A stretch of 58,306 nt of DNA from Candidatus Hadarchaeum sp. (GTDB taxonomy: Archaea > Hadarchaeota > Hadarchaeia > Hadarchaeales > Hadarchaeaceae). The stretch spans positions 1-58,306 of the forward strand of contig DYFS01000003.1 in NCBI GenBank assembly GCA_020725055.1. Direction: 5' to 3'. Below, one piece after another: positions 455-43,816 of the stretch. Under the pieces are notes generated by a model that worked only from the letters and a program-made list of their open reading frames with translations, made no database searches and had not been told where the DNA came from. Both the position numbers and the translations under genes were made by a program. Numbering within the stretch: position 1 is the first letter of the stretch; each line of letters begins with the position of its first letter.

Positions 455-1639
455 ATGCCGTTTGACCTCAGGCCCGAAAGCATCTTGGTGTGGTTAGCGG
501 TTCTCTTCATCTTTAGCCTGTTCATGATGCTCCTGTTGCCCCAGCAGATGGCGCTCTCCTCGCGCCTGTGGATAAAGCACGTGCGGAAATCTGTCAGCGA
601 ACTTGAAAAGTGGGCGAAGGATGGGAGGAGAATCGCCCTCGGCACGATAACCAAGCACGGCCGGCCGAAGCGGGATGTTGAGAAGGGGCTCGACAACATG
701 TTGGAGTTCTTCGCCATCGAGCCCGTCCACGAGGATCCCGTAGGGGTGCTCCGCAGGCTCGAACACGTGCTGGACGTGCGGAAAAAGCGCTTCGAGGGGG
801 CGGTTGCTGACCTCGCCCCAAAGGCTGACCCGGAGGCGGCTGCCAACGTCGAGATGGTGATCGAGGGGGCGATGGCCAACTACCTGATATTCAGGCTCGT
901 GCGCCACTTCATGCTGCTCGCCGAGAAGACCAAGAGCTACCAGCTGATCATGGTCCTGCAGATGCAGATGCCCTTTCTGAAAGACCTCGCCAAAGCATAC
1001 CTCGAGGCCACGAAGGCGTTCGCGGATGGCAAGGCGATCGGCGACGGCGTTGGGGCGATGGTAGCAACGAAGCTGATAGGCAAGGCCACGTGCAAGGAGC
1101 TGGTGGAAGACACAGTATACGCTGAGACCAAGCTCGACGGGCGCAGGTTGCTCGTGGTGAAGGCCAGGGGGCCGGGGGGCAGGGTCGGCAAACCCGGCGA
1201 GCTCATCCAACGCCTGGTCAAGCGACAGAAGGTGGACCGCATCATCATGATCGATGCCGCCCAGAAGCTAGAGGGGGAGGTGAGCGGCCAGGTCATCGAG
1301 GGCGTGGGCGCGGCGATAGGGGGGCCGCCTACCGAGAAATACAAGATCGAGGAGGTGGCCGTCAAGCACAAAATACCGCTCGATGCTATCGTAATCAAAG
1401 AGTCACTGAAGGAAGCGATAACTCCGCTGAACCAGCGCCTGGCGAAGGGTGCCGACATCACGGTCGAGCGGATAAAGCTAGCGATACACGAGCGCACGAG
1501 AGCCGGCGATACCGTAATCATCGCGGGCATAGGAAACACAATCGGCATAGGGCAGCGCGCCGACCAGCTGCCGAAGGAGTTCCCTCCGCCGAAGAAAGAG
1601 GAAAAAGAGATAGAATCCTACCTGCTGCCGTTCCGCTGA
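455..1639 (+). CDS. Conserved archaeal membrane-anchored protein (DUF1512-like)
   Basis: Long ORF with an N-terminal TM helix (ILVWLAVLFIFSLFMMLLL). I recognise the overall layout as the archaeal DUF1512 family; this is from memory and not verified. The ATG at 455 is preferred over the TTG at 446. Confidence 0.55.
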   Translation: MPFDLRPESILVWLAVLFIFSLFMMLLLPQQMALSSRLWIKHVRKSVSELEKWAKDGRRIALGTITKHGRPKRDVEKGLDNMLEFFAIEPVHEDPVGVLRRLEHVLDVRKKRFEGAVADLAPKADPEAAANVEMVIEGAMANYLIFRLVRHFMLLAEKTKSYQLIMVLQMQMPFLKDLAKAYLEATKAFADGKAIGDGVGAMVATKLIGKATCKELVEDTVYAETKLDGRRLLVVKARGPGGRVGKPGELIQRLVKRQKVDRIIMIDAAQKLEGEVSGQVIEGVGAAIGGPPTEKYKIEEVAVKHKIPLDAIVIKESLKEAITPLNQRLAKGADITVERIKLAIHERTRAGDTVIIAGIGNTIGIGQRADQLPKEFPPPKKEEKEIESYLLPFR

Positions 1640-30595: not shown

Positions 30596-30616
30596 TGAGA
30601 ACAGGCCAGTGATTCT

Positions 30617-30667
30617 ATGGTTAACTGGCGAGGGATCGACGCCAAGTGGCAGCAGGCGTGGCGGTGA
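30617..30667 (+). pseudogene. Relic of the leuS 5' end (16 codons then TGA)
   Basis: ATG lies 21 nt after the alaS stop and encodes MVNWRGIDAKWQQAWR*. The genuine LeuRS N-terminus at 40919 reads VVNFQELDAKWQQAWRE. A 20-nt identical core, GACGCCAAGTGGCAGCAGGC, occurs at 30638..30657 and 40940..40959. Confidence 0.8.
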
Positions 30668-30693
30668 CGAACATCTCTGCGGTTGGCCCGACC

Positions 30694-31200
30694 ATGACCG
30701 CGGACTTCTGGGTCATAAGGCCTCAGCTTCAGATCACGAAGACCGCCAGCCCCTCCAGCATCTTCGTCGGCGAGAACGCCACAATAACCGTGACCGCCCG
30801 CAACGTGAGGAACACCGCCGCCCTCAATCCTTCTTTGTTCGACAGCCCCCTAGGCGGCCTGACCCTCATCTCAGGCAACCCTGTCATATCCGCGAATTAC
30901 CTCTGGGGTTCAGCCTCGCCCCCAAGCGTGGACATCTACGTCCGCGACACCAACACCTGGATAAATAGCTCAGAGTCCCAGTGGTGCAGTGTCACGCAGA
31001 TCGATGCGAACACTTGGCAGTTCAACTTCGAGGATCTGAAGGGCCAGCCACGCCCCGACTACGACTTCAACCAGCCCCTACTGACGGTTCGCAAGGACGG
31101 CCACTTCTACTCGGTGACCCTCGAGCGCTACGACGGCGACTACCACTCGGACATCTATGTTGGCGATGTTTTGTTCTGGTCTGGCGCAGCAGGAGTTTGA
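30694..31200 (+). CDS. DUF11/CARDB-like beta-sandwich domain protein without signal peptide (possibly a gene fragment)
   Basis: LQITKTASPSSIFVGENATITVTARN resembles the DUF11 conserved repeat domain. No signal peptide or TM helix. The ORF-track start at 30646 lies inside the leuS relic in another frame. Confidence 0.4.
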   Translation: MTADFWVIRPQLQITKTASPSSIFVGENATITVTARNVRNTAALNPSLFDSPLGGLTLISGNPVISANYLWGSASPPSVDIYVRDTNTWINSSESQWCSVTQIDANTWQFNFEDLKGQPRPDYDFNQPLLTVRKDGHFYSVTLERYDGDYHSDIYVGDVLFWSGAAGV

Positions 31201-31288
31201 GAGCAAGGAAAAAACAAGGAGCTGTGTACCTGCTCAAAGGTCGACACGACATCGGTGGGAGCAAATACTAAGGGTTCTCCCCATGCAG

Positions 31289-32638
31289 TCAGAACTCTGG
31301 CGCCCCGGCGCGTGATCGCTTGACTAAAACCGCGATGCCACCCAAGATACTGGCGATGCATAGCAGGATTAAAGGCCATTGAAGCAGCTCTAGGATCCCA
31401 GTTCCCGGAGGGCTTTTCGGTGCACCGAGGGCATAGAACTTTCCCTCCACCGAGCCGAAGTAGACATTACCGTAGGCGATAGCCGGGGTTGAGTCCACAA
31501 TATGATTCGTTTTGAAATGTTGGAGGATTACACCAGTGGAAGAGTCGACCACATATAGTCCATCTCCCCCGACAAGGACTTTGTTGTCTGCGCCCACCGG
31601 CGAGCTGTGGGTTCCCCATTCAAGGTCGGTTTTCCACATCAAGGCCCCATCGGCCATATTTAGAGCGTAAAGAAAATTCCGGCTAGTAAAAAACACTTTG
31701 CCATCCATAACCAATGTGGAGGACACAGACCAGTTCTGGGAATCGTAATACCAGATCAGCCCGCCGTTCTCTGCGCTTAAAGCATAAACCCCATCGCCCG
31801 GCAAGTCACCCATCCACCCTGCGGTTATGTAGACTATGTTGTCTACGACCACAGGTGACGCGCTTATCTCATCACCGATGTGGAACTTCCAGATAAGCGA
31901 GCCGTCATTAGCATTTAACGCGTAAACAAAACCCGTGGTGGTTTCCGGCCATTCTACTCCGGCTCCGGTGCCAAAATAGACAACACCAGCAACAACGGTC
32001 GGGGAACCTATAACATGTCCCATAATCCCATTGCCGTAGCTGTATTCCCAAATCAAATCGCTGTTATCTGCATTTAAACAAAAAAGGTACCCGTTCCAAG
32101 TGCCGATGTAGAGTCGGCTATCAATGATTACTGGGGCGCCATCGACGCCAGCTAGTCCATATCGGCGATAAACATTGAAGCGCCACATCAGCTCACCTGT
32201 TTCTGCATCTAATGCGTATATGTGGTTGTCCCATGAACCGACATAGACGCGGTTGTCGACGATAGTCGGTGATGGATCAAGAAATTGTCCTCCTCCACGA
32301 TTGGTTTTAAATTTCCAAACAAGTTCCCCGTTTTCAGCATTTAGGGCATAGATCCACAACCGTTCATTTTCCCCCTTACCGTAGTTTTCTCGCACCGAGA
32401 AATAGACTTTCCCACGCGCTACTGCAGGGGATGAAAAGATCGAGGCTCCTTGGATTTCGTACTTCCAGATTAGTGTCAGTTCACTTGGTAAGCTTGTACC
32501 CGCAATGCCCGTCCGTCGCCAATCGTGCATGAACGTTGGCCAATCGTCGGTTTGCGCGTTGACGGAAGATTGGGCTGCTAACGACGTACCGACCATCGAT
32601 ATGATGAACAATGCCGCGATGAGCACGATTTTCTTCAT
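31289..32638 (-). CDS. Secreted PQQ-like beta-propeller repeat protein with C-terminal TM anchor
   Basis: Signal peptide MKKIVLIAALFIISMVGTSLAAQS. Repeated SSP.V..G.VY.G...G.LYALNA..G.L.W blades. C-terminal hydrophobic helix followed by KRSR. Confidence 0.8.
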   Translation of the reverse strand: MKKIVLIAALFIISMVGTSLAAQSSVNAQTDDWPTFMHDWRRTGIAGTSLPSELTLIWKYEIQGASIFSSPAVARGKVYFSVRENYGKGENERLWIYALNAENGELVWKFKTNRGGGQFLDPSPTIVDNRVYVGSWDNHIYALDAETGELMWRFNVYRRYGLAGVDGAPVIIDSRLYIGTWNGYLFCLNADNSDLIWEYSYGNGIMGHVIGSPTVVAGVVYFGTGAGVEWPETTTGFVYALNANDGSLIWKFHIGDEISASPVVVDNIVYITAGWMGDLPGDGVYALSAENGGLIWYYDSQNWSVSSTLVMDGKVFFTSRNFLYALNMADGALMWKTDLEWGTHSSPVGADNKVLVGGDGLYVVDSSTGVILQHFKTNHIVDSTPAIAYGNVYFGSVEGKFYALGAPKSPPGTGILELLQWPLILLCIASILGGIAVLVKRSRAGAPEF

Positions 32639-32710
32639 ACGCTTCCCAAATTATCTTCGTCTGAACTAACTTCATCAAAACACTTATTTAAGTAGGGTGG
32701 TCGAAAGTCG

Positions 32711-34375
32711 ATGAGAGGTATTAGCTTGAGACCAATATTTTCACTCCTATTATGTGTCTTGCTGTTCGGCTCGATACTCCCATCTTCTTTAATTGCGGCG
32801 CCCCTGGCGCACGGTACCAGCTCTGGTAAAACTTTGAGTTCTTCCTTAGATGCCCTAGCTGTTAAATCCTCTACGCAGGCAACGAACAACTCGGTTCTCA
32901 TCGCAGATGAAAGCTACCAAACAAACGCGACCTCAAGCGCCGATGCTGGACCTGTAGAAAATGAAATCCTGAGATTTGTCGTTGAAGAGTTGACAAATCC
33001 GCCTGGCGTCGATGCTGCTCTGGGATATCTCAACGAATTCCACACTGCGCTCGAAAAAATCGAGAACTTCCTTAAGGCAGGGAACGAAGACCTGCTTGGA
33101 CCCACGATCGAAGAAGCCAACGCTTCCTTGTCGGCTTTCGAGAACGCCGTACCAGAGATGTTAAAATCGCTCGAGAATGAATTTTCAGGCGAATACGTTG
33201 TAGGGTTCAACACTTGGCTAGAGAACTTCCTCGGTGCGGCAAACGGGCTCCTCGAGTATTTGCAAGGCACGAGCATCGAAGCATCCGAAGCGTTACCCCT
33301 AATCGCCAACGTTCGACAGGTGCTTTTAGAATTGCCAACTGGGGAGCACTCGGTTTACTTCGTGGAGGAGGGCGCATGGTTCGAGGATCCTTATGGCAAC
33401 TGGTTACCAAGGGAAGATACCTATACCTTCGTGACATACCCTCGAGAAAAAGTCGTCTGGAAGTTCAAGATTTTCAACGACGAGCTGCGCTGGCCATTCT
33501 GGGACCCACCCCGGGCAACAATTGACCTCAAAATCACGATGTGGGATTTCTCAACCTCTCGCCCGGATTACCCGACCTGGACCTTCCTGCCTTTTGAGAT
33601 AGGTGCCCGAACCATCCTCACAGTCTATGGAGAGTTTACCGCTCCATTCGAGCCAGCTAACTACGGTTTTCTGATCGAATTTGACTGGCAGTCCACAAGC
33701 GGCGCAAGCGGCAGCGAGGGCTTCGGGATAATTCTGAGGGTCAAGAATAGAAATCCGACAGCTTCACGCCAGCCCGTTCGTCCAGAAAATGGTCCTTGGG
33801 GCACCACATTTAGATTTTGGACTGAATACAGAGATCCAGATGGCCATCCTCCAGCTTACGTCCGAGTCTATATAGACGGATTACCATTTGGCATGATATT
33901 CGTATCCGGCGATTACAAAACTAAGGCGATATACGAATACTGGTGGCAAACGGCTTCTCAGGATATCGGTGCCCACACCTATTACTTTGAGACATGGGAC
34001 GGCTATGGCGAGATATATCGCTCTGCAACGGATTCGGGTCCGTCCGTCACCAAGCGCAACTCGATCCTGAGGTACCCCACCACTTCCCTCACTCGGGAAT
34101 GTAACTTCTTGGGTTGGGGTTGGGGCGGAAGCCTAACCGACTCAGAGACGGGAGAGTACTTAGCCGGACGGACCGTGAAGTTGTACAAATCCGATGGCAC
34201 TTACCTCGCCGCCACGACGACAGATTCCACCTATGGGATGTTCATCTTCGCGGCAAGGGATTACGGGCTGCCGAACCTCGCGCCAGGAACGTATTATTAC
34301 TACGCCGCTTGGGACGGCGACGATTTATATGCGGGCGCGAAATCCGAAACCGTTACACTCATTTTAACGGAATGA
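32711..34375 (+). CDS. Secreted protein (signal peptide; helical N-terminal region; beta-rich and carboxypeptidase-regulatory-like C-terminal region); probably the N-terminal part of the next ORF
   Basis: Signal peptide MRGISLRPIFSLLLCVLLFGSILPSSLIAAPLA. Ends at TGA 34373..34375, in the same frame as the ORF starting at 34379. Confidence 0.75.
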   Translation: MRGISLRPIFSLLLCVLLFGSILPSSLIAAPLAHGTSSGKTLSSSLDALAVKSSTQATNNSVLIADESYQTNATSSADAGPVENEILRFVVEELTNPPGVDAALGYLNEFHTALEKIENFLKAGNEDLLGPTIEEANASLSAFENAVPEMLKSLENEFSGEYVVGFNTWLENFLGAANGLLEYLQGTSIEASEALPLIANVRQVLLELPTGEHSVYFVEEGAWFEDPYGNWLPREDTYTFVTYPREKVVWKFKIFNDELRWPFWDPPRATIDLKITMWDFSTSRPDYPTWTFLPFEIGARTILTVYGEFTAPFEPANYGFLIEFDWQSTSGASGSEGFGIILRVKNRNPTASRQPVRPENGPWGTTFRFWTEYRDPDGHPPAYVRVYIDGLPFGMIFVSGDYKTKAIYEYWWQTASQDIGAHTYYFETWDGYGEIYRSATDSGPSVTKRNSILRYPTTSLTRECNFLGWGWGGSLTDSETGEYLAGRTVKLYKSDGTYLAATTTDSTYGMFIFAARDYGLPNLAPGTYYYYAAWDGDDLYAGAKSETVTLILTE

Positions 34376-34378
34376 TAT

Positions 34379-37300
34379 GTGCCCCCACCACCCCCTCCCC
34401 CACTAGCCGACACGACCGCGCCAACAATCACCGGCTTACAAGCCCAGCCTAGCCCGTTCAACCCAACTCTCCAAAATACCCAAATAAGCTTCACGCTTTC
34501 TGAGCCGGCGAACTACACCATAACGATAAGCGACTTCAACGATATTGTGCGGAGAACCTTCACAGGCTCTGGTACTGGAGAAATAACGTGGAATTGGAAT
34601 GGAACCGACGACTACGGCTTACTGGTCAACGATGGGCCTTACACCATTACCATTAATGCGGAGGATCTAGCTGGCAACGATGCGACACCAGTAACGACAA
34701 ACGTGGTGGTGAACGCCGTGGATTTTCAAATCCAGAGGGGTTTCGATCCAGCGGCGTTTAACCCGAACTTCGAAACCACGACGCTTTGGTATGAACTCTC
34801 CGAGCCTGCCACGGTGACCGTCACCATAACAGACGCCGCGGGAGCCACCGTCAGACACTTGGTTGTTGGACAGGACAGAGGAGGGGGTGCAAACTCCGTG
34901 GTCTGGAACGGCACCAACGATGGCGGTGCTCTCTTGCCAGGCGGAACGTATAGGGGGGTGATAACCGCAACGAGCTTCGCGGGTGAAGCCCCCGACTTCG
35001 TCCCTCCAGCTCCGCCAACGGTAACAATAGATTACGGGCGCCCCGCAATCACGGCTTGGGCGGACGACGACCCGCTCGACCGCACTATGGGTGAGACTAG
35101 CGTTAGCATAACCTACACGATCGCATCACCCACTGGGGCAAACCTGCAGGTCATGATTACGATATTTGATGAAGCTGGAAACGTGGTGAACGAGACTCCA
35201 TGGATCCTCCAGCTCCCTGGTACGTACACATGGACTTGGCTTGGGACGGATGCCGCAGGCAATCCAGTTCCGGATGGGCTGTATCCATACAGAATAAGGG
35301 CGAGAACGCCTCCACCAGCTCCTGTTTGGGCGAACACCAGGTGGGGAACAGTAGTTGTAATTGACACCAATGTTCAAATAACTCAAAGCGCCGATGGAGT
35401 TGTTCAGCTTCTGCACCCTGCGGGCTACAACGTTAACATCGGACCAGCACCAGCTGGTCCGCTCACCGAAGCAGCACGCGCAATACGTGCACAGGGGCTT
35501 GGGTACCTGCACAGCCAAATATACGACATTACCTCAACCCCGAATACTTTTGACCCACCAGCGCTCCTGATGTTCAGCTATGACCCAGCTCTCTACGGGC
35601 CTAGGCTCCAGCTGTACAGGTTCAATCCCGCCGCTAACGCGTGGAATCCCGTCCCGAACCAGTTCGTCGATGTTGTCAACAATAGGATAATCGCCGAGGC
35701 GGTGCAGCTCTCGATATTTGCCATCCTCAGCCTGCCTCCTGACCGGACGCCGCCGGTATCATTTGTCGAAAACATCGAGCCTTATTGGCAAAACGAGTTG
35801 CCTTTCATGATAACCGCCCAAGCAACCGACGATCGAAGTGGCGTGGAGAACGTCGCTCTGTGGTATCGATATAGTGATGATAATGTTGTGTGGGGCCCCT
35901 GGGTCTTGTTTGGTATCGATGATATACCACCGTGGTCGTGGTCCTTCACAGCACCAAACGGCGATGGGCACTATGAGTTTTACACCGTTGGCGTTGACCG
36001 GGGTGGCAATATTGAAAAGGCTCGGGAGAAAGCCGACGCTCGGGCTGGCGTGGATACAACACCACCAGAATCCTCCGTTAATCCCATCTCCCCCCATTGG
36101 CAAAAATCGCTCCCGCTGACCATAACAGCCCAGGCGAGCGATGCGCTGAGCGGCGCCAAGGAGGTCATGCTGTTTTACCGCTACTCAGCCGACAACCTGC
36201 GCTGGAGTGGCTGGAAGCTCTACGGCATCGATGGAGAGGAGCTCTGGAGCTGGGAGGTCATGCCCGAGAACGATGGTTACTATGAGTTCGGCACAATAGC
36301 CATAGACCGAGCCGGAAACGTTGAGCAGCCCATCGTCGAATCGAAAACTCTCACAGGCGCGTTCGTGGGCTGGTACGCTTACAATTTGTGGACCGATTAC
36401 GGCGAGTGGAGCTGGTCCGAGATATCCGGCGAGCACATGTACGGCTACGATGAGGATGGAGCAGATCGTTTAGATGTGCTAGTGTACCCGCCCCCGCTCA
36501 CGTCAGACGAGGAGATGACTGTCTGGGTAGAGGTGAAGATAGATGGACCAGCCGTGGAGTTGGTTGAGGTACCATTACCGTGGGATTCTTTATTGGAAGC
36601 ACGGTTTGGTCCTGTGACGATCAGATCCATTAGACCCGCACAGAAATGGAACGTTTTTGTTGACGAGATTTACGGGACGGCGGAAAACCCGAACGGCGAT
36701 GGCAATGGGAACGGCTGGAACGGAAATGGGTGGAACGGGTGGAACGGGTGGAATGGTAACGGTTGGAATGGTTGGGACGGGTGGGAAGAGGATGAGTGGG
36801 ACATACCTATTGAGCCTGAACCTAGAGAGATCCACAAGAGGTACGAAGGCGCTGTAACAGCAAAAGTCAGGATCGCGTGGCCGGAGGCGACCGCGAGCGC
36901 TGGGGTAGACACGAAGCCACCAGAATCCCTATTAGATCCGATAACCCCCTACTGGAGGAATGCGGGCACGGTTCCGTTTGAGATAACAGCGGTGGCATCC
37001 GATGCCTTCACCGGAGTCGAGAACGTTGAGTTGCTCTACCGCTACTCTCTTGACAACCTGAACTGGTCCGAGTGGAGGGCTTACAGAGTTGACGATGAGG
37101 CACCTTGGTCATGGGAATTTAACGCACCCGAGGGAGACGGCTTTTATGAGTTCGTGAGCATCGCAAGGGATCGCGTGGGCAATGCGGAAAGGATGAAAGG
37201 GGTTGTTTCGTTCATTCATGTGGATGGAACGATCTCCACCATTTCATCCCCGCCAACCACCGAGGGCTGGAGGGGGCTCGCTTGGGATGGAGGTGACAAG

Positions 37301-40300
37301 ATATACATGCGCACCCAGGGTGAACTCTGGAGTTACTCCATTTCCCGAAACACATGGACGCGCCTGACTGCCATGCCAGCGAGCGGGGCGAGCTTCAACA
37401 GCCTCGTTTGGGCGGACGGATATCTCTTTGCGCTTAGAGGGTATTGGGCCGATCCAAAGCACGAATTCTGGCGCTATTCCATCTCCGCAAACCGCTGGGA
37501 GAGCATGGCGTCAACTCCCATCGGGATTCATCGGGGGGCACTGGTGTGGACTGGCGGCGATCACATCTACACTTTGGACAATGGCGGGATCTTCCTGCGG
37601 TACTCCATCTCAAGCAACAGGTGGGATACTCTATCGTTCCCGTCCAGCATGCAGGCAGCAGATTTGGCATGGGACGGGCGGGATCACATCTACGCGATCT
37701 TGGAGAGGACCTACTACTCATTGGAACTCTGGAGGTACACGATTTCATCCGATAGCTGGGTTAAATTGGAGACGATCTCAGGTGTTACACCCGTGCAAGC
37801 ACCCCACTACCCATACCCCATAACCATGGTTTCGATAATGGTGCCCGGCGACGGATATCTGTACCTCGCGTGGCAAGATGGCAGGATTTGGAGGTACGAG
37901 TTACTCTCAAGAGAACTGATGTCCGTTGCCTCCGGGATTGGGACCACCTGGGACGCGGTATGGAACGGCGAGAGCATCTACACCGATGGGGGTTGGAAGT
38001 ACACGCCGTCTGTGGTGACGGTTGTAACTGGGGCGATGTGTGGCGTTGATACAATACCACCGACCTCAAGTGTCGACCCGATTTCCCCATATTGGAAGAA
38101 CTCTGGGATGCTTCCATTTGAGGTGAGCGCAACCGCTTCTGACCACCTCAGTGGAGTTGGAGGTGTTGAGCTCTGGTATAGGTACTCGGTCGATAACTTA
38201 GTATGGGAAGACTGGGTGCTTTACGACGTTGATAATTCCGAGCCTTACTCTTGGACATTTGACACTTCCAATGGTGATGGGTACTATGAATTTTACAGCG
38301 TGGCAACCGATAGAGCTGGCAATAGAGAGATATCTCCGGGGATAATCCTCCATCCCAGCGACGACACGTACATCAACTTCTCATCCCCAGCCATCAATTT
38401 CGGCTCTAGCCCCTATCTGCTCTTCAACGTGGAGGACGGAGAAGATGACATCAACCGCGCCTTCTTCAAATTCAATCTCAATTTGCCGGCAGAAACGACG
38501 ATAGTCGCGGCAACATTGAACATATATCAACTCGATGAAGACGGGGACCCCCAGCCGATCGAGGTGAGGGCGGTCGAGAACGATGAGTGGACCGAGAGTA
38601 CCCTAACATGGAAGAATCAGCCGAGTTATGGGGATGCTTTGGATGCGAAGTACACCTCCGTCCAAGGCTACCGCTGGCTCAGCTGGGATGTCACGAGTTT
38701 CGTGAAAATGGAAATCGAGGGCGATAAGCAGGTAAGTTTTTGCTTAAAAGTGATGGAAGAGAGGGCGCCCTCAGGGGATATGAGCAAACAGGCGTCGAAG
38801 GAATACTCAGACATCACATACCACCCGTACCTTTTGATCATCACGCCCTCCGACCTCCAAGCCGATGCTCTGGCGGGTGTGGATACGACGTCACCGACCT
38901 CGAGCATTAACCCAATCGAGCCTTATTGGCAGAATGCATTTATGATTCCATTCGAGGTGACCGCTGCGGCGCTTGATGAGCTCAGCGGCGTGGCGCGCGT
39001 CGAGTTCTGGTACCGATATTCCTCAGATAACCTAACGTGGGGACAATGGGATCCACTTGGCGTCGATGAGGTTAAGCCTTGGGAGTTGACGTTCAGCGTT
39101 CCCAGAGGGGATGGTTTCTATGAGTTCAGCAGCATGGCGATCGATGCAGCTGGCAACGCTGAGCTTCTCGAGCAGGTGTTGGTAGATGATTTCACCGCTC
39201 CCCTCGATACAGGGCTTTGGTCAGTCGGAAAGGTCGTGGTCAAATACGACGACGTTCAGGTCTCAGACGGCTCACTAAGGTTGAGCGCAAGGGCGGCAAA
39301 GGCCGGAAAGTACGGCGCAATTTATGCTGTTTCGAACGAGCTTCTGGATCTAACTCAAGGCTGGGTCATAGATGTCCAAATGGCGGTTCCGACGGACAAC
39401 GCGCCCGAGGACTTCAGGAGCGAGTTCTACCTCGCGTCCACGTTTACCACAATTGCGAACCCCCATGAGCTGCCTGACTGGCTGAGGGTTTCCGCTAGCG
39501 TTAATCGTGAGGGGGTTCGATGGATGCTCCAGCGCAAGCGATTGAGCGCCGGGGTGGGGTTGGGCACCCTCTACACGAGCGGCCCGACTAACAAGCTAGG
39601 TGGAACTTGGCGGATAGCCATCAACGGCGAAAACTTTGCAGTCTGGCTGGACGGCCAACGTGTTGAAAACTGGAGAGCGCACGAACTCCCATTCACGAGC
39701 GCCCACATGTACCTAGTCGAGCGCACGAAGGTCGCCCCCGTTTATACAGTGAGCTTCGATCATGTTAGGGTACAGGAGTTTTTGGCAGATGTACGCATTG
39801 GTGTCGACACGTCTCCCCCTGAGTCGTCCGTGAACCCGATCGAGCCCTACTGGCAAGAAACGTTGCCGTTCGGGATTTCTGCCACAGCGTCTGATGCGCT
39901 CAGCGGAGTCGCATCGGTAGAACTCTACTATAGGAGTTCGATCAACAGCATCAACTGGACATGGTGGAAGCTCTTCGGCACAGACGATACAGCTCCGTAC
40001 GAGTGGTCTTTCACGGCTCCCGATGGCTACGCCCTCTATGAGTTCTATTCTGTCGCGACCGATGTGGCAGGGAATGTTGAGGGGGCACCCGAGGTTGCAG
40101 ATGCATCGTGTGGAGTTGTAATCCCCGCGACGATCGACATCGATCCTGACACCCTCAACCTCCGAAGTCAAGGCCGATGGATAACCGCGTACATCGAGCT
40201 GCCGGGCGGCTTTGATGTGGCAAACATCGATGTGAGCACCGTGGCTCTCGAGGGTGACATCTTCCTCGAGGGGATTCTATCTTCCGAGCTTCATCCGGCT

Positions 40301-40873
40301 GAGACAGGTGACTATGACAGCGATGGCGTGCCCGACATGATGGTGAAGTTCGATCGCTCGGCCGTACAAGAACTGGTAAGTGTTGGCGACAACGTTAAGC
40401 TGATGGTGGTCGGCAAGTGGGGCCTAGCGCCATTTAGGGGCAGCGACAACATCCGGGTAATCGAGCCCGGCGAAGGGCAGCAAGACAATGGAAATAAACC
40501 CGAGGTTCCGCCCGGCCAGTCCGGCGGGCATCCCGGTCAGGGGCAGGGGCCGCCAGTAACGCCCCCGGGACAGGGGGGTCAATCCCCAAGCCAAGGTAAC
40601 CAAGGGGTTCAAGGCAACGAAGGAGGGCAACAAAACCAAGGTCAGGGGCCACCTCAAACGCCACTAGGGCAAGGGAACGATCAGAGCCAAAGCAATCAAA
40701 ATAAACAGCAAGGAAACCAGGGTCAGGGGCAAGGGAACAGCCAAAGCCAAGATAATCAAAGCAGTGATCAAGGAAATGGGCGAGGTCAGGGCAACTCGAA
40801 CGGTCAAAACAATGGTGATCAAGGCCAAGGAAACGGGCAAAATCAGGGCCGAGGGAAAACCAAGGAGAAGTAG
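34379..40873 (+). CDS. Giant multidomain cell-surface protein (2164 aa as an ORF)
   Basis: Domain order, recognised by eye: 3 FlgD-Ig-like domains, 2 copies of a ~95-aa repeated module, a GWN repeat, module 3, a Kelch-type propeller, module 4, a DNRLRE-like domain, module 5, a ConA/LamG-like domain, module 6, a C-terminal beta domain, and a Q/G/N-rich tail. Recognised motifs are PSPFNP...ITWNWNGTDD (FlgD-Ig-like), GVDTxPPxS...P.W....PF.I.A.A.D..SGV..VEL.YRYS.DN..W..W (module), RYSISSNRW blades (Kelch-like), and D.YI......NFG....L......D..RAF.KFNL...............L.IY...........V..V....W.E..LTW.NQP (DNRLRE-like). There is no signal peptide, and the ORF begins GTG followed by poly-Pro. Confidence 0.85.
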   Translation: MPPPPPPPLADTTAPTITGLQAQPSPFNPTLQNTQISFTLSEPANYTITISDFNDIVRRTFTGSGTGEITWNWNGTDDYGLLVNDGPYTITINAEDLAGNDATPVTTNVVVNAVDFQIQRGFDPAAFNPNFETTTLWYELSEPATVTVTITDAAGATVRHLVVGQDRGGGANSVVWNGTNDGGALLPGGTYRGVITATSFAGEAPDFVPPAPPTVTIDYGRPAITAWADDDPLDRTMGETSVSITYTIASPTGANLQVMITIFDEAGNVVNETPWILQLPGTYTWTWLGTDAAGNPVPDGLYPYRIRARTPPPAPVWANTRWGTVVVIDTNVQITQSADGVVQLLHPAGYNVNIGPAPAGPLTEAARAIRAQGLGYLHSQIYDITSTPNTFDPPALLMFSYDPALYGPRLQLYRFNPAANAWNPVPNQFVDVVNNRIIAEAVQLSIFAILSLPPDRTPPVSFVENIEPYWQNELPFMITAQATDDRSGVENVALWYRYSDDNVVWGPWVLFGIDDIPPWSWSFTAPNGDGHYEFYTVGVDRGGNIEKAREKADARAGVDTTPPESSVNPISPHWQKSLPLTITAQASDALSGAKEVMLFYRYSADNLRWSGWKLYGIDGEELWSWEVMPENDGYYEFGTIAIDRAGNVEQPIVESKTLTGAFVGWYAYNLWTDYGEWSWSEISGEHMYGYDEDGADRLDVLVYPPPLTSDEEMTVWVEVKIDGPAVELVEVPLPWDSLLEARFGPVTIRSIRPAQKWNVFVDEIYGTAENPNGDGNGNGWNGNGWNGWNGWNGNGWNGWDGWEEDEWDIPIEPEPREIHKRYEGAVTAKVRIAWPEATASAGVDTKPPESLLDPITPYWRNAGTVPFEITAVASDAFTGVENVELLYRYSLDNLNWSEWRAYRVDDEAPWSWEFNAPEGDGFYEFVSIARDRVGNAERMKGVVSFIHVDGTISTISSPPTTEGWRGLAWDGGDKIYMRTQGELWSYSISRNTWTRLTAMPASGASFNSLVWADGYLFALRGYWADPKHEFWRYSISANRWESMASTPIGIHRGALVWTGGDHIYTLDNGGIFLRYSISSNRWDTLSFPSSMQAADLAWDGRDHIYAILERTYYSLELWRYTISSDSWVKLETISGVTPVQAPHYPYPITMVSIMVPGDGYLYLAWQDGRIWRYELLSRELMSVASGIGTTWDAVWNGESIYTDGGWKYTPSVVTVVTGAMCGVDTIPPTSSVDPISPYWKNSGMLPFEVSATASDHLSGVGGVELWYRYSVDNLVWEDWVLYDVDNSEPYSWTFDTSNGDGYYEFYSVATDRAGNREISPGIILHPSDDTYINFSSPAINFGSSPYLLFNVEDGEDDINRAFFKFNLNLPAETTIVAATLNIYQLDEDGDPQPIEVRAVENDEWTESTLTWKNQPSYGDALDAKYTSVQGYRWLSWDVTSFVKMEIEGDKQVSFCLKVMEERAPSGDMSKQASKEYSDITYHPYLLIITPSDLQADALAGVDTTSPTSSINPIEPYWQNAFMIPFEVTAAALDELSGVARVEFWYRYSSDNLTWGQWDPLGVDEVKPWELTFSVPRGDGFYEFSSMAIDAAGNAELLEQVLVDDFTAPLDTGLWSVGKVVVKYDDVQVSDGSLRLSARAAKAGKYGAIYAVSNELLDLTQGWVIDVQMAVPTDNAPEDFRSEFYLASTFTTIANPHELPDWLRVSASVNREGVRWMLQRKRLSAGVGLGTLYTSGPTNKLGGTWRIAINGENFAVWLDGQRVENWRAHELPFTSAHMYLVERTKVAPVYTVSFDHVRVQEFLADVRIGVDTSPPESSVNPIEPYWQETLPFGISATASDALSGVASVELYYRSSINSINWTWWKLFGTDDTAPYEWSFTAPDGYALYEFYSVATDVAGNVEGAPEVADASCGVVIPATIDIDPDTLNLRSQGRWITAYIELPGGFDVANIDVSTVALEGDIFLEGILSSELHPAETGDYDSDGVPDMMVKFDRSAVQELVSVGDNVKLMVVGKWGLAPFRGSDNIRVIEPGEGQQDNGNKPEVPPGQSGGHPGQGQGPPVTPPGQGGQSPSQGNQGVQGNEGGQQNQGQGPPQTPLGQGNDQSQSNQNKQQGNQGQGQGNSQSQDNQSSDQGNGRGQGNSNGQNNGDQGQGNGQNQGRGKTKEK
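35741..36020 (+). repeat. Giant-protein repeat module 1 (~95 aa Ig-like unit; coordinates approximate)
   Basis: DRTPPVSFVENIEPYWQNELPFMITAQATDDRSGVENVALWYRYSDDNVVWGPW...GDGHYEFYTVGVDRGGN. Confidence 0.8.
36050..36327 (+). repeat. Giant-protein repeat module 2
   Basis: VDTTPPESSVNPISPHWQKSLPLTITAQASDALSGAKEVMLFYRYSADNLRWSGW...NDGYYEFGTIAIDRAGN. Confidence 0.8.
36905..37190 (+). repeat. Giant-protein repeat module 3
   Basis: VDTKPPESLLDPITPYWRNAGTVPFEITAVASDAFTGVENVELLYRYSLDNLNWSEW...GDGFYEFVSIARDRVGN. Confidence 0.8.
38045..38329 (+). repeat. Giant-protein repeat module 4
   Basis: VDTIPPTSSVDPISPYWKNSGMLPFEVSATASDHLSGVGGVELWYRYSVDNLVWEDW...GDGYYEFYSVATDRAGN. Confidence 0.8.
38879..39166 (+). 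repeat. Giant-protein repeat module 5
   Basis: VDTTSPTSSINPIEPYWQNAFMIPFEVTAAALDELSGVARVEFWYRYSSDNLTWGQW...GDGFYEFSSMAIDAAGN. Confidence 0.8.
39803..40083 (+). repeat. Giant-protein repeat module 6
   Basis: VDTSPPESSVNPIEPYWQETLPFGISATASDALSGVASVELYYRSSINSINWTWW...DGYALYEFYSVATDVAGN. Confidence 0.8.
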
Positions 40874-40880
40874 TTGCACT

Positions 40881-40888
40881 TTTTATAA
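40881..40888 (+). promoter_or_regulatory. Putative TATA box for leuS
   Basis: TTTTATAA lies about 31 nt upstream of the GTG start at 40919, inside the right end of the inserted island. Confidence 0.4.
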
Positions 40889-40918
40889 TTGGCTGGCTAG
40901 ATGTAAGTCGGCGATTTC

Positions 40919-43816
40919 GTGGTGAACTTTCAGGAGCTAGACGCCAAGTGGCAGCAGGCTTGGCGCGAGGCAAAGCTCTTCGAGGCCGAACCCGATGGGA
41001 GGCAGAAGTTCTACCTCACGGTCGCCTACCCTTACGTTTCGGGCCCCATGCATGTTGGCCACGGGCGCACCTACACGGTGCCCGACGTCATTTCACGCTA
41101 CAAGCGGATGCGGGGTTACAACGTGCTGTTTCCCATGGCATACCACTTCACGGGCACCCCGATTGTCGGGGCGGCGAAGCGCGTGGCGCGCAGGGAGCCG
41201 CAGTTCATCAAGGTCCTCACCGAGCGCTACGGGGTGAGTGGGGACGAGTTCAAGAAATTTGAGGATCCCCACTACTTCGCGAACCACTGGGCAAAGGTCA
41301 GCGATCTCAGCTACCGCAAGGGGATGGAATGGCTCGGCTACTCCATCGACTGGCGCCGCGAGTTCACCACCGTCGACCCGCACTACAGCCGCTTCATCAC
41401 CTGGCAGTACCACAAGCTGATGGAGGCCGGGCTAATCGTCAAGGGCGAGCACCCGGTGAAGTGGTGCCCACGCTGCCAGAACCCCGTGACAGACCACGAC
41501 CTGCTGGATGGGGAGGGCGTGGGCATCGTCGAGTTCACCCTGCTGAAGTACCGCCTCGGAGACTACGTGCTGCCCGCCGCGACGCTCAGGCCGGAGACCG
41601 TCTTCGGCGTCACCAACCTGTGGCTGAACCCGAACGTTGAGTACGTGCTCGCGGAGGTCGACGGTGAGCGGTGGGTGGTGAGCAGGGAGGCAGTCGAAAA
41701 GCTGCGCGAGCAGGGGCGCGAGGTCGGCGAGGTCCAGAAGTTCTCAACCCGTGAGCTGATGGGGAAAGAAATCGAGGTGCCGCTTACCCACAAGCGGGTC
41801 CTAATCCTGCCCGCACCGTTTGTCGACCCGGATAACGCAACTGGTGTCGTCGGCTCGGTCCCGGCGCACGCCCCCTACGACTACGTGGCGCTACTCGAGC
41901 TCCAGAAGAAGCCAGAACCGCTGAAGCAGTGGGGCACCGACCCGGCGGCGGTGCAGAAGCTCGGTGCAATCTCTCTCATCGAGGTCAGGGGCTTCGGCGA
42001 GTCCCCGGCGGTCGACGTGGTCAAGCGGATGAAGATTAAGAGTCAAACCGACCCGAAGCTCGAGGAGGCGACGGCGGAGGTGTACCGCAACGAGTTCGCG
42101 AAGGGCGTTATGCGCGACTGGGTGCCCAAGTACGGGGGGATGCAGGTCTCGGAGGCCAAGGCGCAGGTTAGGGATGATCTCGTGTTTAGCGGGGAAGCGG
42201 CGGCGATGTACGAGTTCTCGGCGAAACCCGTCACGTGCAGGTGCGGGGCAAAGTGCTGCGTGAGGCTAGTCAAGGACCAGTGGTTTTTGAACTATGCCGA
42301 TGAGGCTTGGAAAGAAAAGGCGCGCGCGTGCCTGGCGCAGATGCACCTCGTTCCCCCCGAGACGCGCGCGCAGTTCGAGCATGTCGTCGGGTGGCTCCAC
42401 GAGTGGCCATGCACGCGGCACATCGGGATGGGCACAGTGGCCCCCTGGGACTCGAACTGGATGATTGAATCGCTTAGCGACTCGACAATCTACATGGCGT
42501 ACTACACGGTCTCGCACATCCTAAAAACGGTTGAGCCTGACAAGCTCACAGACGAGGTCTTCGACCACATCTTCTTGGGTAAGGGCGATGCTGCCGCGAT
42601 CGCTAGGGTGACGGGCATCGAGGAGCAAAAGCTTCGGGCGATGCGCGGGGAGTTCGAGTACTGGTACCCGCTCGACTACCGGATGTCCGCGAACGAGCTC
42701 ATCCCAAACCACCTCACTTTCTTCACGTTCCACCACGCGCTACTCTTCCCGCAAAAACACTGGCCGCGAGGCATCGCGTCGTTCGGTATCGCGGTGCTCG
42801 AGGGGCAAAAGATGTCGTCCTCGAGGGGCAACATCGTGGCAATCAACGAGGCAGTTCGGAAGTACGGGGCGGACGCGGTGAGGCTTTACCTGATGTCAAC
42901 GGTCGAACCGTGGCAGGACTTCGACTGGCGCGCCCACGAGGCGGACGCGATGCTCCGCCACCTCGAGCGGTTCTACGCGCAGGCGCAGGAGATCGTGGCT
43001 CTCCCCGCCCCCGGGCGCCCGAGCTTGGGGCTGCCGGAGCGATGGATGCTCAGCAAGCTGCAGAGGCACGTCCGGGAGGCGACGGAGGCGCTCGAAGGCT
43101 TCGAGGTGCGGAAGGCGCTGCAACACGCGCTCTTCTCGCTCATGCAAGATTTGAGGTGGTACCTAAAACGCGCCAGGGGGGACGAGGCGTGCGCGTACGT
43201 GCTCAAGCGGGTGCTCGATACTTGGGTGCGGTTGCTCGCCCCATTCGCGCCGCACACCTGTGAGGAACTCTGGCACCAGATGGGCAAGGAGGGGTTTGTC
43301 TCGCTCACGCCTTGGCCTAAGGTCGAGGAGGGCATCATCGACCGCGCCGCTGAGTTCGCGGAGGACTACCTTGCGGGCATCTCCGATGACATAAGCAACA
43401 TCCTGCGCGCGGTAAAAATCGAGAGGCCTACGAGGATATGCCTGTACGTGGCGCAAGACTGGAAGTGGCGGGCCTACCGCATGGCGCTCGAGCGTGTGCG
43501 CGCCGGCAGGGTTGAGGTAAAAGAGCTCCTGCGCGAGGTCGAGCGCGGGCTGGGTTTGAGGCTGTACACGGCGGATCTGGCGAAATTCCTGCATCGCGTC
43601 GTCCAGGAGTTCAGGGCAATGCATGAGGAGCGGTTGGCTGAGCTCGCGGGGGTGGAGCTAGATGAGTTCCAGGTGCTTTTTGATGCCACCGGTTTCCTCA
43701 GCAAACAGTTCGGTGCGGGGGTCAAGATATTCATGGCGGATGACGCGACTCGGTACGACCCACAGGACAGAGCGCAGCTCTCCAAGCCCATGAGGCCAGC
43801 TATCCATGTGGAATGA
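40919..43816 (+). CDS. leuS: Leucine--tRNA ligase (archaeal type)
   Basis: HVGH (HIGH) motif in PYVSGPMHVGHGRTY, the KMSSS (KMSKS) motif, and CP1 editing-domain blocks. Length is 965 aa. GTG start. Confidence 0.95.
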   Translation: MVNFQELDAKWQQAWREAKLFEAEPDGRQKFYLTVAYPYVSGPMHVGHGRTYTVPDVISRYKRMRGYNVLFPMAYHFTGTPIVGAAKRVARREPQFIKVLTERYGVSGDEFKKFEDPHYFANHWAKVSDLSYRKGMEWLGYSIDWRREFTTVDPHYSRFITWQYHKLMEAGLIVKGEHPVKWCPRCQNPVTDHDLLDGEGVGIVEFTLLKYRLGDYVLPAATLRPETVFGVTNLWLNPNVEYVLAEVDGERWVVSREAVEKLREQGREVGEVQKFSTRELMGKEIEVPLTHKRVLILPAPFVDPDNATGVVGSVPAHAPYDYVALLELQKKPEPLKQWGTDPAAVQKLGAISLIEVRGFGESPAVDVVKRMKIKSQTDPKLEEATAEVYRNEFAKGVMRDWVPKYGGMQVSEAKAQVRDDLVFSGEAAAMYEFSAKPVTCRCGAKCCVRLVKDQWFLNYADEAWKEKARACLAQMHLVPPETRAQFEHVVGWLHEWPCTRHIGMGTVAPWDSNWMIESLSDSTIYMAYYTVSHILKTVEPDKLTDEVFDHIFLGKGDAAAIARVTGIEEQKLRAMRGEFEYWYPLDYRMSANELIPNHLTFFTFHHALLFPQKHWPRGIASFGIAVLEGQKMSSSRGNIVAINEAVRKYGADAVRLYLMSTVEPWQDFDWRAHEADAMLRHLERFYAQAQEIVALPAPGRPSLGLPERWMLSKLQRHVREATEALEGFEVRKALQHALFSLMQDLRWYLKRARGDEACAYVLKRVLDTWVRLLAPFAPHTCEELWHQMGKEGFVSLTPWPKVEEGIIDRAAEFAEDYLAGISDDISNILRAVKIERPTRICLYVAQDWKWRAYRMALERVRAGRVEVKELLREVERGLGLRLYTADLAKFLHRVVQEFRAMHEERLAELAGVELDEFQVLFDATGFLSKQFGAGVKIFMADDATRYDPQDRAQLSKPMRPAIHVE

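What the first reader, a model, noticed from the sequence alone, without database searches (positions are those of the whole stretch)
32711..40873. A 2,720-codon secreted giant-protein reading frame interrupted by a single in-frame TGA
The 554-aa ORF (32711..34375) has a clear Sec-type signal peptide and ends at TGA 34373..34375. The next two codons are TAT and GTG, and the GTG (34379) opens the 2164-aa ORF. Both ORF starts are congruent to 2 mod 3, so the two ORFs lie in one continuous frame broken by a single stop. The downstream ORF has no signal peptide or TM helix, although every recognisable domain in it is extracellular in type. It also opens with VPPPPPPPLADTTAPT, which looks like an interdomain linker rather than an N-terminus. 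TGA is used as an ordinary stop elsewhere in the window (alaS 30593, secE 24134, leuS 43814, gmhA 56868), so genome-wide recoding is unlikely. The remaining explanations are a very recent nonsense mutation, a sequencing or assembly error, or programmed readthrough or selenocysteine insertion at this codon. Any of these changes how the largest gene in the window should be annotated.
Basis: partly seen in the sequence, partly recalled or inferred. Interest (0 to 1): 0.8.

Follow-up and report, generated by a model that had tools for sequence, protein, structure and literature searches.

The report
Giant surface-protein gene split by stop
Two adjacent genes in this Hadarchaeota genome are one ancestral gene for a giant secreted protein, cut by a real premature TGA stop; this is a fairly ordinary disrupted accessory gene, except that a related species carries its own independent stop at the same domain boundary.

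Summary
ORF1 (32711..34375, 554 aa, signal peptide) and ORF2 (34379..40873, 2164 aa, no signal peptide) lie in one frame, separated only by TGA-TAT. The TGA is not an assembly artefact: three other assemblies carry identical sequence. TGA is also the commonest ordinary stop in the window.

Relatives show that the two ORFs are one gene. A sister species (57% identity in the N-terminal module) has a complete 2242-aa uninterrupted orthologue. More distant relatives of 1719, 1146, 919 and 679 aa also run straight from the ORF1-like module into downstream domains.

The sister species is itself polymorphic at this boundary, with GAA (Glu) in two contigs and TAA in four. That rules out selenocysteine and argues against a conserved programmed readthrough site. 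No SECIS, stimulatory RNA structure or Shine-Dalgarno sequence is present.

The best reading is a recent nonsense allele in a horizontally mobile accessory cassette (PQQ beta-propeller gene plus giant protein gene) inserted between alaS and leuS. The cell should secrete only the 554-aa N-terminal fragment. ORF2 is probably dead or made only by background readthrough. The parallel stop in two species is unexplained and keeps a selected short-isoform or leaky-stop reading open.

The parts
30596..40918 (.). About 10.3 kb accessory insert between alaS and leuS. It holds a small DUF11-like ORF, the PQQ beta-propeller gene and the split giant gene.
   Evidence: In more than 20 Hadarchaeota genomes alaS is followed directly by leuS. 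GC is 0.49 at 32-34 kb against 0.575-0.616 in the neighbouring 2-kb windows.
31289..32638 (-). PQQ/BamB-like beta-propeller gene, the divergently transcribed partner of the giant gene.
   Evidence: Pfam PQQ_2 and Beta-prop_ACSF4 hits. The same gene sits divergently next to the ORF1-like gene in L004-L009 and L091.
32711..34372 (+). 5' part of the giant gene (ORF1, 554 codons). Order of elements: signal peptide, disordered stretch, helical bundle, beta-sandwich, PKD-like domain, Big_3_5/prealbumin-like domain.
   Evidence: AF2 model: helix 7-22, helices 100-206, strands 215-454, last domain 470-552.
32711..32800 (+). Sec-type signal peptide (aa 1-30).
   Evidence: The hydrophobicity maximum of 2.33 falls at residues 12-30. 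The peptide is conserved in P0002, P0152, P0089, P0124 and P0159.
34118..34366 (+). Last folded domain of ORF1 (aa 470-552, Big_3_5/SpaA prealbumin-like).
   Evidence: Pfam hits. The last beta-strand in the AF2 model spans residues 548-552, two residues before the stop.
34373..34375 (+). In-frame premature TGA at the domain boundary.
   Evidence: The codon is identical in L001, L002 and L003.
34376..40873 (+). 3' part of the giant gene (TAT plus ORF2, 2164 codons, terminal TAG 40871..40873). It has no signal peptide and opens with a poly-Pro linker.
   Evidence: It is collinear with the single sister protein: window 1073-1447 and 2152-2365 match L006 796-1213 and 1213-1427. Its C-terminus is 73% identical to that of P0124.
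34475..35305 (+). Three FlgD_ig Ig-like domains (ORF2 aa 33-95, 135-199, 237-309).
37226..38098 (+). Kelch-type beta-propeller region.
38348..38839 (+). CBM96 / DNRLRE domain (ORF2 aa 1324-1487).
   Evidence: (E 5.6e-31).
40481..40870 (+). G/Q/N-rich low-complexity C-terminal tail, shared with P0156, P0124 and the L026 protein.

Best explanation
ORF1 and ORF2 are the two halves of one ancestral gene. It encodes a giant (about 2720 aa) Sec-exported, multi-domain, adhesin-like protein and belongs to a mobile two-gene accessory cassette with a divergent PQQ-like beta-propeller gene. A point mutation created a TGA in the linker just after the fourth domain.

Shown: the stop is real. The fused state is ancestral. 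The stop sits exactly at a domain boundary. ORF2 has no export signal, no Shine-Dalgarno sequence and no recoding signal.

Inferred: translation ends at the TGA, so the cell secretes only the 554-aa N-terminal fragment. ORF2 is then either untranslated, made in the cytoplasm by reinitiation at the GTG 4 nt downstream (and so non-functional), or made as full-length protein only at the low level of spontaneous UGA misreading. Because 2164 downstream codons carry no second lesion, the mutation is recent. The locus should be annotated as one disrupted gene, not two genes.
For: (1) The stop is real. Three other assemblies (JGI 3300029892, SRR5011277, SRR13164376) are 99.9-100% identical, including the TGA.

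(2) The fused state is ancestral.
- The sister-species protein P0156 is a complete 2242-aa uninterrupted orthologue, running from signal peptide to G/Q/N tail (L091 and L006).
- P0124 (1719 aa), P0089 (1146 aa), P0152 (919 aa) and P0159 (679 aa) all continue from the ORF1-like module into further domains.
- BLASTP alignments cross the junction in a single HSP: the fused window protein vs P0152 covers residues 114-711, and L006 vs P0124 covers 15-810.

(3) The same kind of stop is seen as a segregating SNP in the sister species. TAA occurs in L004, L005, L090 and L092. GAA occurs in L006 and L091, in otherwise 99.9% identical DNA.

(4) The stop falls two residues after the last strand of the last ORF1 domain. 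ORF2 begins with a poly-Pro linker.

(5) ORF2 has no signal peptide or TM segment, although all its domains are extracellular types.

(6) There is no Shine-Dalgarno sequence before GTG 34379. There is no RNA structure after the TGA (z = +0.75) and no Rfam hit.

(7) If unconstrained, ORF2 would stay intact with P < 0.07 beyond about 1% neutral divergence, or beyond about 0.3% if indels are counted. The event is therefore recent.

(8) The gene is accessory. It forms a 10.3-kb lower-GC insert between alaS and leuS that is absent from more than 20 related genomes. The cassette sits in a different genomic context in the sister species.
Against: Two species carry independent stops at the same interdomain boundary. 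That is roughly a 0.5% coincidence if nonsense mutations fall uniformly, and about 5% if only linkers are tolerated. It hints at selection or tolerance rather than random decay.

ORF2 shows no second lesion, which would also be expected if it were still expressed and useful.

All four available assemblies of the window species have the TGA, and no intact allele of this species was found. The ancestral sense codon in this species is therefore inferred, not observed.
Confidence: 0.75

Rival explanations
1. The stop is functional or tolerated as a leaky stop. Most ribosomes terminate and give a secreted 554-aa short isoform, while a fraction read through the UGA (near-cognate Trp, Cys or Arg tRNA) and give the full 2720-aa exported protein. 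The stop would then act as an expression attenuator or a long/short isoform switch that populations flip by point mutation.
For: Independent stops sit at the same boundary in two species, and the stop allele is common in the sister species (four of six contigs, on two haplotype backgrounds). ORF2 is fully intact. ORF2 can only be exported as a fusion. Natural complete family members are as short as 679 aa, so a short form is plausibly functional. Published surveys argue that short-lived in-frame stops with readthrough and reversal are widespread in prokaryotes (PMC7918605). From memory, the sister context UAA-CAA-CCA matches the eukaryotic leaky motif stop-CAR-YYA.
Against: The stop is not conserved. 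Glu or Ile codons occupy the site in close and distant relatives. The stop identity differs between the species, and in the sister it is TAA, generally the tightest stop. There is no downstream structure (z = +0.75). The window context UGA-U is not a known leaky context. Stop haplotypes in the sister species carry extra non-conservative changes in ORF1 (G487W, V345I; 2 nonsynonymous against 0 synonymous) and, in L004, a 138-nt deletion in the partner gene. These look like decay rather than maintenance.
Confidence: 0.15
2. This is a true gene fission. ORF1 and ORF2 are now two functional genes, with ORF2 translated by termination-reinitiation at GTG 34379 and working either intracellularly or after export by some unrecognised route.
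For: A GTG lies 4 nt after the stop, a spacing typical of translationally coupled archaeal genes. Gene callers and NCBI annotate two proteins.
Against: ORF2 has no signal peptide, and every recognisable domain in it is extracellular in type. There is no Shine-Dalgarno sequence. ORF2 begins with a linker. In the sister stop alleles the first possible in-frame start lies 22-27 codons downstream, inside the next domain. All other lineages are fused.
Confidence: 0.06
3. Selenocysteine is inserted at the UGA.
For: The only support is that the codon is UGA in an archaeon.
Against: The homologous position is GAA or TAA in the sister species and Ile in P0124, with no Cys in any relative. There is no Rfam hit in 32000..41500 at E <= 1. 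The 3' UTR is only 45 nt and has an unremarkable fold (z = -0.9). The site lies in a Pro-rich linker, not a redox motif. Sec use in archaea is reported for class I methanogens, the AK8/W8A-19 group and Asgard, not Hadesarchaea (PMC5424206).
Confidence: 0.005
4. The TGA is a sequencing or assembly artefact.
For: No evidence supports this.
Against: The junction is identical in four assemblies from different read sets.
Confidence: 0.01

Closest known systems
Short-lived in-frame stop-codon polymorphisms in prokaryotic genes (Belinky et al. 2021, PMC7918605)
   Same: A single nonsense substitution sits in an otherwise intact gene. In the sister species it is present as a strain-level polymorphism, with sense and stop alleles in near-identical genomes. 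Flanking sequence has not degenerated.
   Different: Here the gene is a 2.7-kcodon accessory surface-protein gene of an uncultured archaeon. Two species carry independent stops at the same domain boundary, and that paper reports independent events as only about 1.5% of orthologous stops. No dN/dS test was possible here.
Giant modular Ig-repeat surface/adhesin-like proteins of bacteria and archaea
   Same: It has an N-terminal Sec signal followed by a long chain of beta-sandwich domains (FlgD_ig, Big_7, Big_13, Big_3_5) with Kelch and CBM96 inserts. Domain number varies between relatives (679 to 2720 aa). The fold search returns only generic tandem Ig adhesins.
   Different: The N-terminal roughly 450-aa module (helical bundle, beta-sandwich, PKD-like domain) has no Pfam or NCBIfam family and was found in only about six lineages. 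No recognisable cell anchor is present. It is always paired with a divergent PQQ-like beta-propeller gene.
Archaeal selenoprotein genes (UGA with a 3'-UTR SECIS)
   Same: There is an in-frame UGA within a long ORF in an archaeon.
   Different: There is no SECIS and no Cys or Sec at the homologous site. The sister stop is UAA. The site is a linker. The lineage is not known to use Sec.
Programmed readthrough extensions (e.g. Q-beta A1 protein, MuLV gag-pol)
   Same: The geometry is the same: a short product ends at a stop and a long in-frame extension follows.
   Different: Those stops are conserved and, in many cases, come with defined contexts or downstream structures. Here the stop is not conserved and no signal is detectable.

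Membership tests
Nonsense-disrupted gene (premature-stop allele / young pseudogene) | Orthologues are uninterrupted across the site, and both halves are collinear with one protein. | tested here: met
   P0156 (2242 aa), the L006 ORF, P0124, P0152, P0089 and P0159 are uninterrupted. BLASTP HSPs cross the junction.
Nonsense-disrupted gene (premature-stop allele / young pseudogene) | The stop is real in the DNA, not an artefact. | tested here: met
   The same TGA appears in four assemblies. Raw reads were not available.
Nonsense-disrupted gene (premature-stop allele / young pseudogene) | The downstream part lacks its own start context and targeting signal. | tested here: met
   There is no Shine-Dalgarno sequence and no signal peptide or TM segment. 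ORF2 starts in a poly-Pro linker.
Nonsense-disrupted gene (premature-stop allele / young pseudogene) | Further degeneration or relaxed selection is seen downstream. | tested here: not met
   There is no second lesion in 2164 codons. This is compatible only with a recent event or with continued use.
Selenoprotein gene (archaeal) | A SECIS stem-loop is present in the 3' UTR. | tested here: not met
   No Rfam match at E <= 1. The 45-nt 3' UTR folds with z = -0.9.
Selenoprotein gene (archaeal) | Cys or Sec occupies the homologous position in relatives. | tested here: not met
   The position is Glu or TAA in the sister species and Ile in P0124. In P0140 a linker occupies the region.
Selenoprotein gene (archaeal) | The genome encodes Sec machinery (SelB, SPS, PSTK, SepSecS, tRNA-Sec). 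| not testable with these tools
   Only 58 kb of the genome is available, with one tRNA (Leu-CAG). The literature does not list Hadesarchaea among Sec users.
Programmed stop-codon readthrough | The stop is conserved at the site across relatives. | tested here: not met
   Sense codons occupy the site in L006/L091, P0124, P0152, P0140 and P0089. The site is polymorphic in the sister species.
Programmed stop-codon readthrough | A leaky context or stimulatory downstream RNA structure is present. | tested here: not met
   The 100 nt after the TGA fold less well than shuffled sequences (z = +0.75). The context is UGA-UAU. In the sister species z = -0.9.
Programmed stop-codon readthrough | A readthrough product is detected. 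| not testable with these tools
   This needs proteomics or a reporter assay.
Independent adjacent genes (fission with translational coupling) | The second gene has its own start context and export signal, and two separate genes are conserved in relatives. | tested here: not met
   A GTG lies at +4, but there is no Shine-Dalgarno sequence or signal peptide. Relatives are fused. The sister stop alleles stay in frame and open directly after the stop.

The most novel reading that the evidence does not exclude
The stop at this particular linker is not random decay. It is a recurrent, selected switch in Hadarchaeota. Point mutations toggle the giant surface protein between a full-length form and a secreted 554-aa N-terminal form, or a strongly attenuated leaky-stop form. 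The switch arose independently in two species and segregates in natural populations, for example under virus or cost pressure.
Probability: 0.15. Interest if true: 0.6.

Novelty: new member of a known kind. Interest (0 to 1): 0.3.

Why it matters
For annotation, the largest coding region in the window should be recorded as one disrupted gene (or one gene with an internal stop), not as a 554-aa protein plus an unexportable 2164-aa protein.

Biologically, it gives a clean natural example of a stop/sense polymorphism in a giant accessory surface-protein gene of an uncultured archaeal phylum. The intact allele, the stop allele and stop alleles with further changes are all captured in public metagenomes. 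If the parallel stops in two species reflect selection, the locus would be a tractable case for studying how archaea modulate costly surface structures. That remains unproven.

Tried and rejected
- **Selenocysteine.** Rejected on orthologue residues, absence of a SECIS and lineage.
- **Assembly error.** Rejected.
- **Genome-wide TGA recoding.** Rejected.
- **Synteny search.** I looked upstream of leuS in 80 related loci for a closer orthologue. The giant gene is simply absent there, because alaS abuts leuS.
- **L026.** It carries a protein with the same C-terminal module, but its N-terminus runs off the fetched locus, so it is uninformative.
- **Word-indexed protein searches.** Searches with ORF1, with P0124 residues 1-796 and with the sister post-junction domains found no further lineages carrying the junction.
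- **Cluster look-ups.** No intact allele of the window species was found.
- **GTDB genome scan.** A scan with the ORF1 profile found nothing.
- **Fold search.** The ORF1 model gave only generic tandem Ig hits with low TM-scores, so no specific function could be assigned.
- **Diversity within the window species.** There is none in this gene, so no selection test was possible.


Full report
**Observation**

The sequence around the junction reads ...ACG GAA TGA TAT GTG CCC CCA CCA.... ORF1 is 32711..34375 (554 aa) and ORF2 is 34379..40873 (2164 aa). One-frame translation of 32711..40873 gives 2721 codons with a single internal stop.

ORF1 has a clear N-terminal hydrophobic signal segment. ORF2 has none, and no TM-like window anywhere. 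TGA terminates 22 of 45 long ORFs in the window. alaS and leuS end where their orthologues end.

**Organism and setting**

leuS and alaS are archaeal types. LeuS is 82% identical to Hadarchaeota MAGs. In more than 20 Hadarchaeota genomes alaS is followed directly by leuS. The window instead carries about 10.3 kb between them. This insert holds a small DUF11-like ORF, a PQQ/BamB-like beta-propeller gene on the minus strand, ORF1 and ORF2. Its GC content is lower (0.49 at 32-34 kb) than in the neighbouring 2-kb windows (0.575-0.616).

The propeller gene is divergently adjacent to the ORF1-like gene in every related locus. In the sister species the pair sits between rpS3Ae and a phosphoglucomutase gene. 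The locus is thus a mobile accessory two-gene cassette.

**Is the TGA real?**

The exact 554-aa product occurs on three other contigs: JGI 3300029892, Logan SRR5011277 and SRR13164376. Their junction sequence is identical and their overall identity is 99.9-100%. L001 differs only by an N-run and three SNPs in leuS. An assembly error is therefore very unlikely. These contigs represent the same strain, however, so they say nothing about history.

**Relatives**

ORF1 has one close homologue in 5.8 billion clusters, P0002 (57% identity over the first 450 aa, 535 aa long). On its contig (L004) it ends ...SPKPPE-TAA-QPPEEQPATS..., and the same frame stays open to the contig end.

Two JGI contigs of the same species were then found. 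L005 also has TAA. L006 has GAA (Glu) at that codon and one uninterrupted ORF of at least 1650 codons.

The P0002 cluster also contains P0156, a complete 2242-aa fused protein. It runs from the signal peptide to the same G/Q/N-rich tail as window ORF2. P0156 is encoded on L091, which is identical to L006. Two further contigs, L090 and L092, carry TAA. The haplotypes are:
- (G487, GAA)
- (G487, TAA)
- (W487, TAA)

L004 additionally has V345I and a 138-nt deletion in the propeller gene.

A full HMMER scan of 1.84 billion representatives with the ORF1 profile found mostly hits to the PKD-like repeat. It also found P0124 (1719 aa), whose first 558 residues match the whole ORF1 profile. P0124 continues ...TFYISPKPPE-I-PPGPEETSLTLSILYCNPTPL..., and its C-terminus is 73% identical to the C-terminus of window ORF2. 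P0089 (1146 aa), P0152 (919 aa) and P0159 (679 aa, with signal peptide; L008 shows the same upstream extension) are likewise continuous across the equivalent boundary.

Three BLASTP results support this:
- The fused window protein vs P0152 gives one HSP over window residues 114-711.
- L006 vs P0124 gives one HSP over residues 15-810.
- The window vs L006 gives collinear HSPs at 3-450, 1073-1447 and 2152-2365.

The fused gene is therefore the ancestral and normal state. By parsimony, the sister TAA arose within that species and independently of the window TGA.

**Anatomy of the junction**

Pfam places a Big_3_5/prealbumin-like domain at ORF1 residues 476-550. The first FlgD_ig domain is at ORF2 residues 33-95. 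An AF2 model of ORF1 was built from a 5-sequence alignment (mean pLDDT 68). It shows, in order:
- a signal helix
- a disordered stretch
- a helical bundle (100-206)
- beta-sandwiches
- a last domain (470-552), whose final strand ends two residues before the stop

The TGA therefore lies exactly in an interdomain linker, and ORF2 begins with the poly-Pro linker.

There is no Shine-Dalgarno-like motif in the 30 nt before GTG 34379. The 100 nt after the TGA fold less well than shuffled sequences (z = +0.75). The 45-nt 3' UTR is unremarkable (z = -0.9). Rfam gives no hit at E <= 1.

**Mechanism**

The best-supported reading is a recent nonsense mutation in a single gene. Termination at the TGA releases a secreted 554-aa fragment. 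ORF2 cannot be exported on its own and is dead, or is made only by background UGA misreading.

A simple calculation gives a time limit. About 4% of substitutions in ORF2 would create stops. An unconstrained ORF2 would therefore remain intact with P of about 0.07 at 1% divergence. If indels at 10% of the substitution rate are counted, P is about 0.065 at 0.3% divergence. The event is young, on the same scale as the sister-species polymorphism (about 0.1% divergence).

**Rivals**

Selenocysteine is rejected for five reasons:
- The homologous codon is GAA or TAA in the sister species and Ile in P0124.
- There is no SECIS.
- The site is a linker.
- No relative has Cys at the site.
- Hadesarchaea are not among the reported Sec-using archaea (PMC5424206).

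A true fission into two functional genes is unlikely. ORF2 lacks any export signal, and in the sister stop alleles the first possible start lies inside the next domain.

Functional or tolerated readthrough cannot be excluded, and the following points support it:
- Independent stops sit at the same boundary in two species. This is roughly a 0.5% coincidence if uniform, or about 5% if only the roughly 19 linkers are tolerated.
- The stop allele is frequent in the sister species.
- ORF2 is intact.
- Complete natural family members of only 679 aa exist.

Belinky et al. (PMC7918605) describe short-lived in-frame stops, reversals and presumed readthrough as widespread in prokaryotes.

The following points count against it:
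- The stop is not conserved.
- The sister species uses TAA.
- No recoding signal was found.
- Stop haplotypes carry extra non-conservative changes (G487W in a conserved Gly/Asp position of the prealbumin-like domain; V345I; the propeller deletion). These look like incipient decay.

**Comparison and novelty**

This is a new instance of a known phenomenon: a premature-stop allele, or young pseudogene, in an accessory surface-protein gene. The protein family itself is poorly known. Its N-terminal module has no Pfam or NCBIfam family and was found in about six lineages. The fold search gives only generic tandem Ig adhesin-like matches.

The unexplained element is the parallel stop at the same boundary in two species. 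It deserves a check in read data and proteomics. On present evidence the finding is mainly an annotation correction of modest interest.

Noticed in passing
window 30596..40918: alaS and leuS are directly adjacent in more than 20 Hadarchaeota genomes. The window has a 10.3-kb lower-GC insert between them that carries the whole cassette, so the giant gene is a horizontally mobile accessory element.
   Followed up: yes
window 31289..32638 (-); L004-L009, L091: A PQQ/BamB-like beta-propeller gene is always divergently paired with the ORF1-like giant-protein gene, even where the genomic context differs (rpS3Ae and phosphoglucomutase flanks in L091). This is a conserved two-gene module of unknown function.
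   Followed up: partly
L004 1..412 vs L091 971..1494: The stop-allele contig L004 lacks 138 nt (46 codons, in frame) of the propeller gene relative to L005, L006 and L091. It could be a real repeat deletion or an assembly collapse.
   Followed up: no
L090 3108..3170 vs L091 5990..7285: The stop-allele contig L090 lacks about 1296 nt between the two LamG-like repeats of the sister giant gene, yet stays in frame. It could be repeat recombination or an assembly collapse.
   Followed up: no
window about 36700..36800 (ORF2 aa about 780-815) and 40481..40870: ORF2 contains a Trp-rich low-complexity run (NGNGNGWNGNGWNGWNGWNGNGWNGWDGW) and a roughly 130-aa G/Q/N-rich C-terminal tail. Both are conserved in kind in P0156, and the tail also in P0124 and the L026 protein. 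No recognisable cell-anchoring signal is present.
   Followed up: no
P0124 vs L006 vs window: The family is mosaic. The junction and post-junction domains of P0124 closely resemble the sister species, and its C-terminus is 73% identical to the window, yet its N-terminal module is only distantly related to both. This suggests domain-cassette exchange between lineages.
   Followed up: partly
L004 2487..2495: The sister stop context UAA-CAA-CCA matches the eukaryotic and plant-virus leaky motif stop-CAR-YYA (recalled from memory). The same CAA-CCA follows the GAA allele, so it was not created for the stop. Its relevance to aRF1 termination is unknown.
   Followed up: no
L008 666..2984: Gene callers start P0140 and P0160 about 85 codons too late. 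The ORF extends upstream to a signal peptide (as in P0159), so database entries for this family are often N-terminally truncated.
   Followed up: partly
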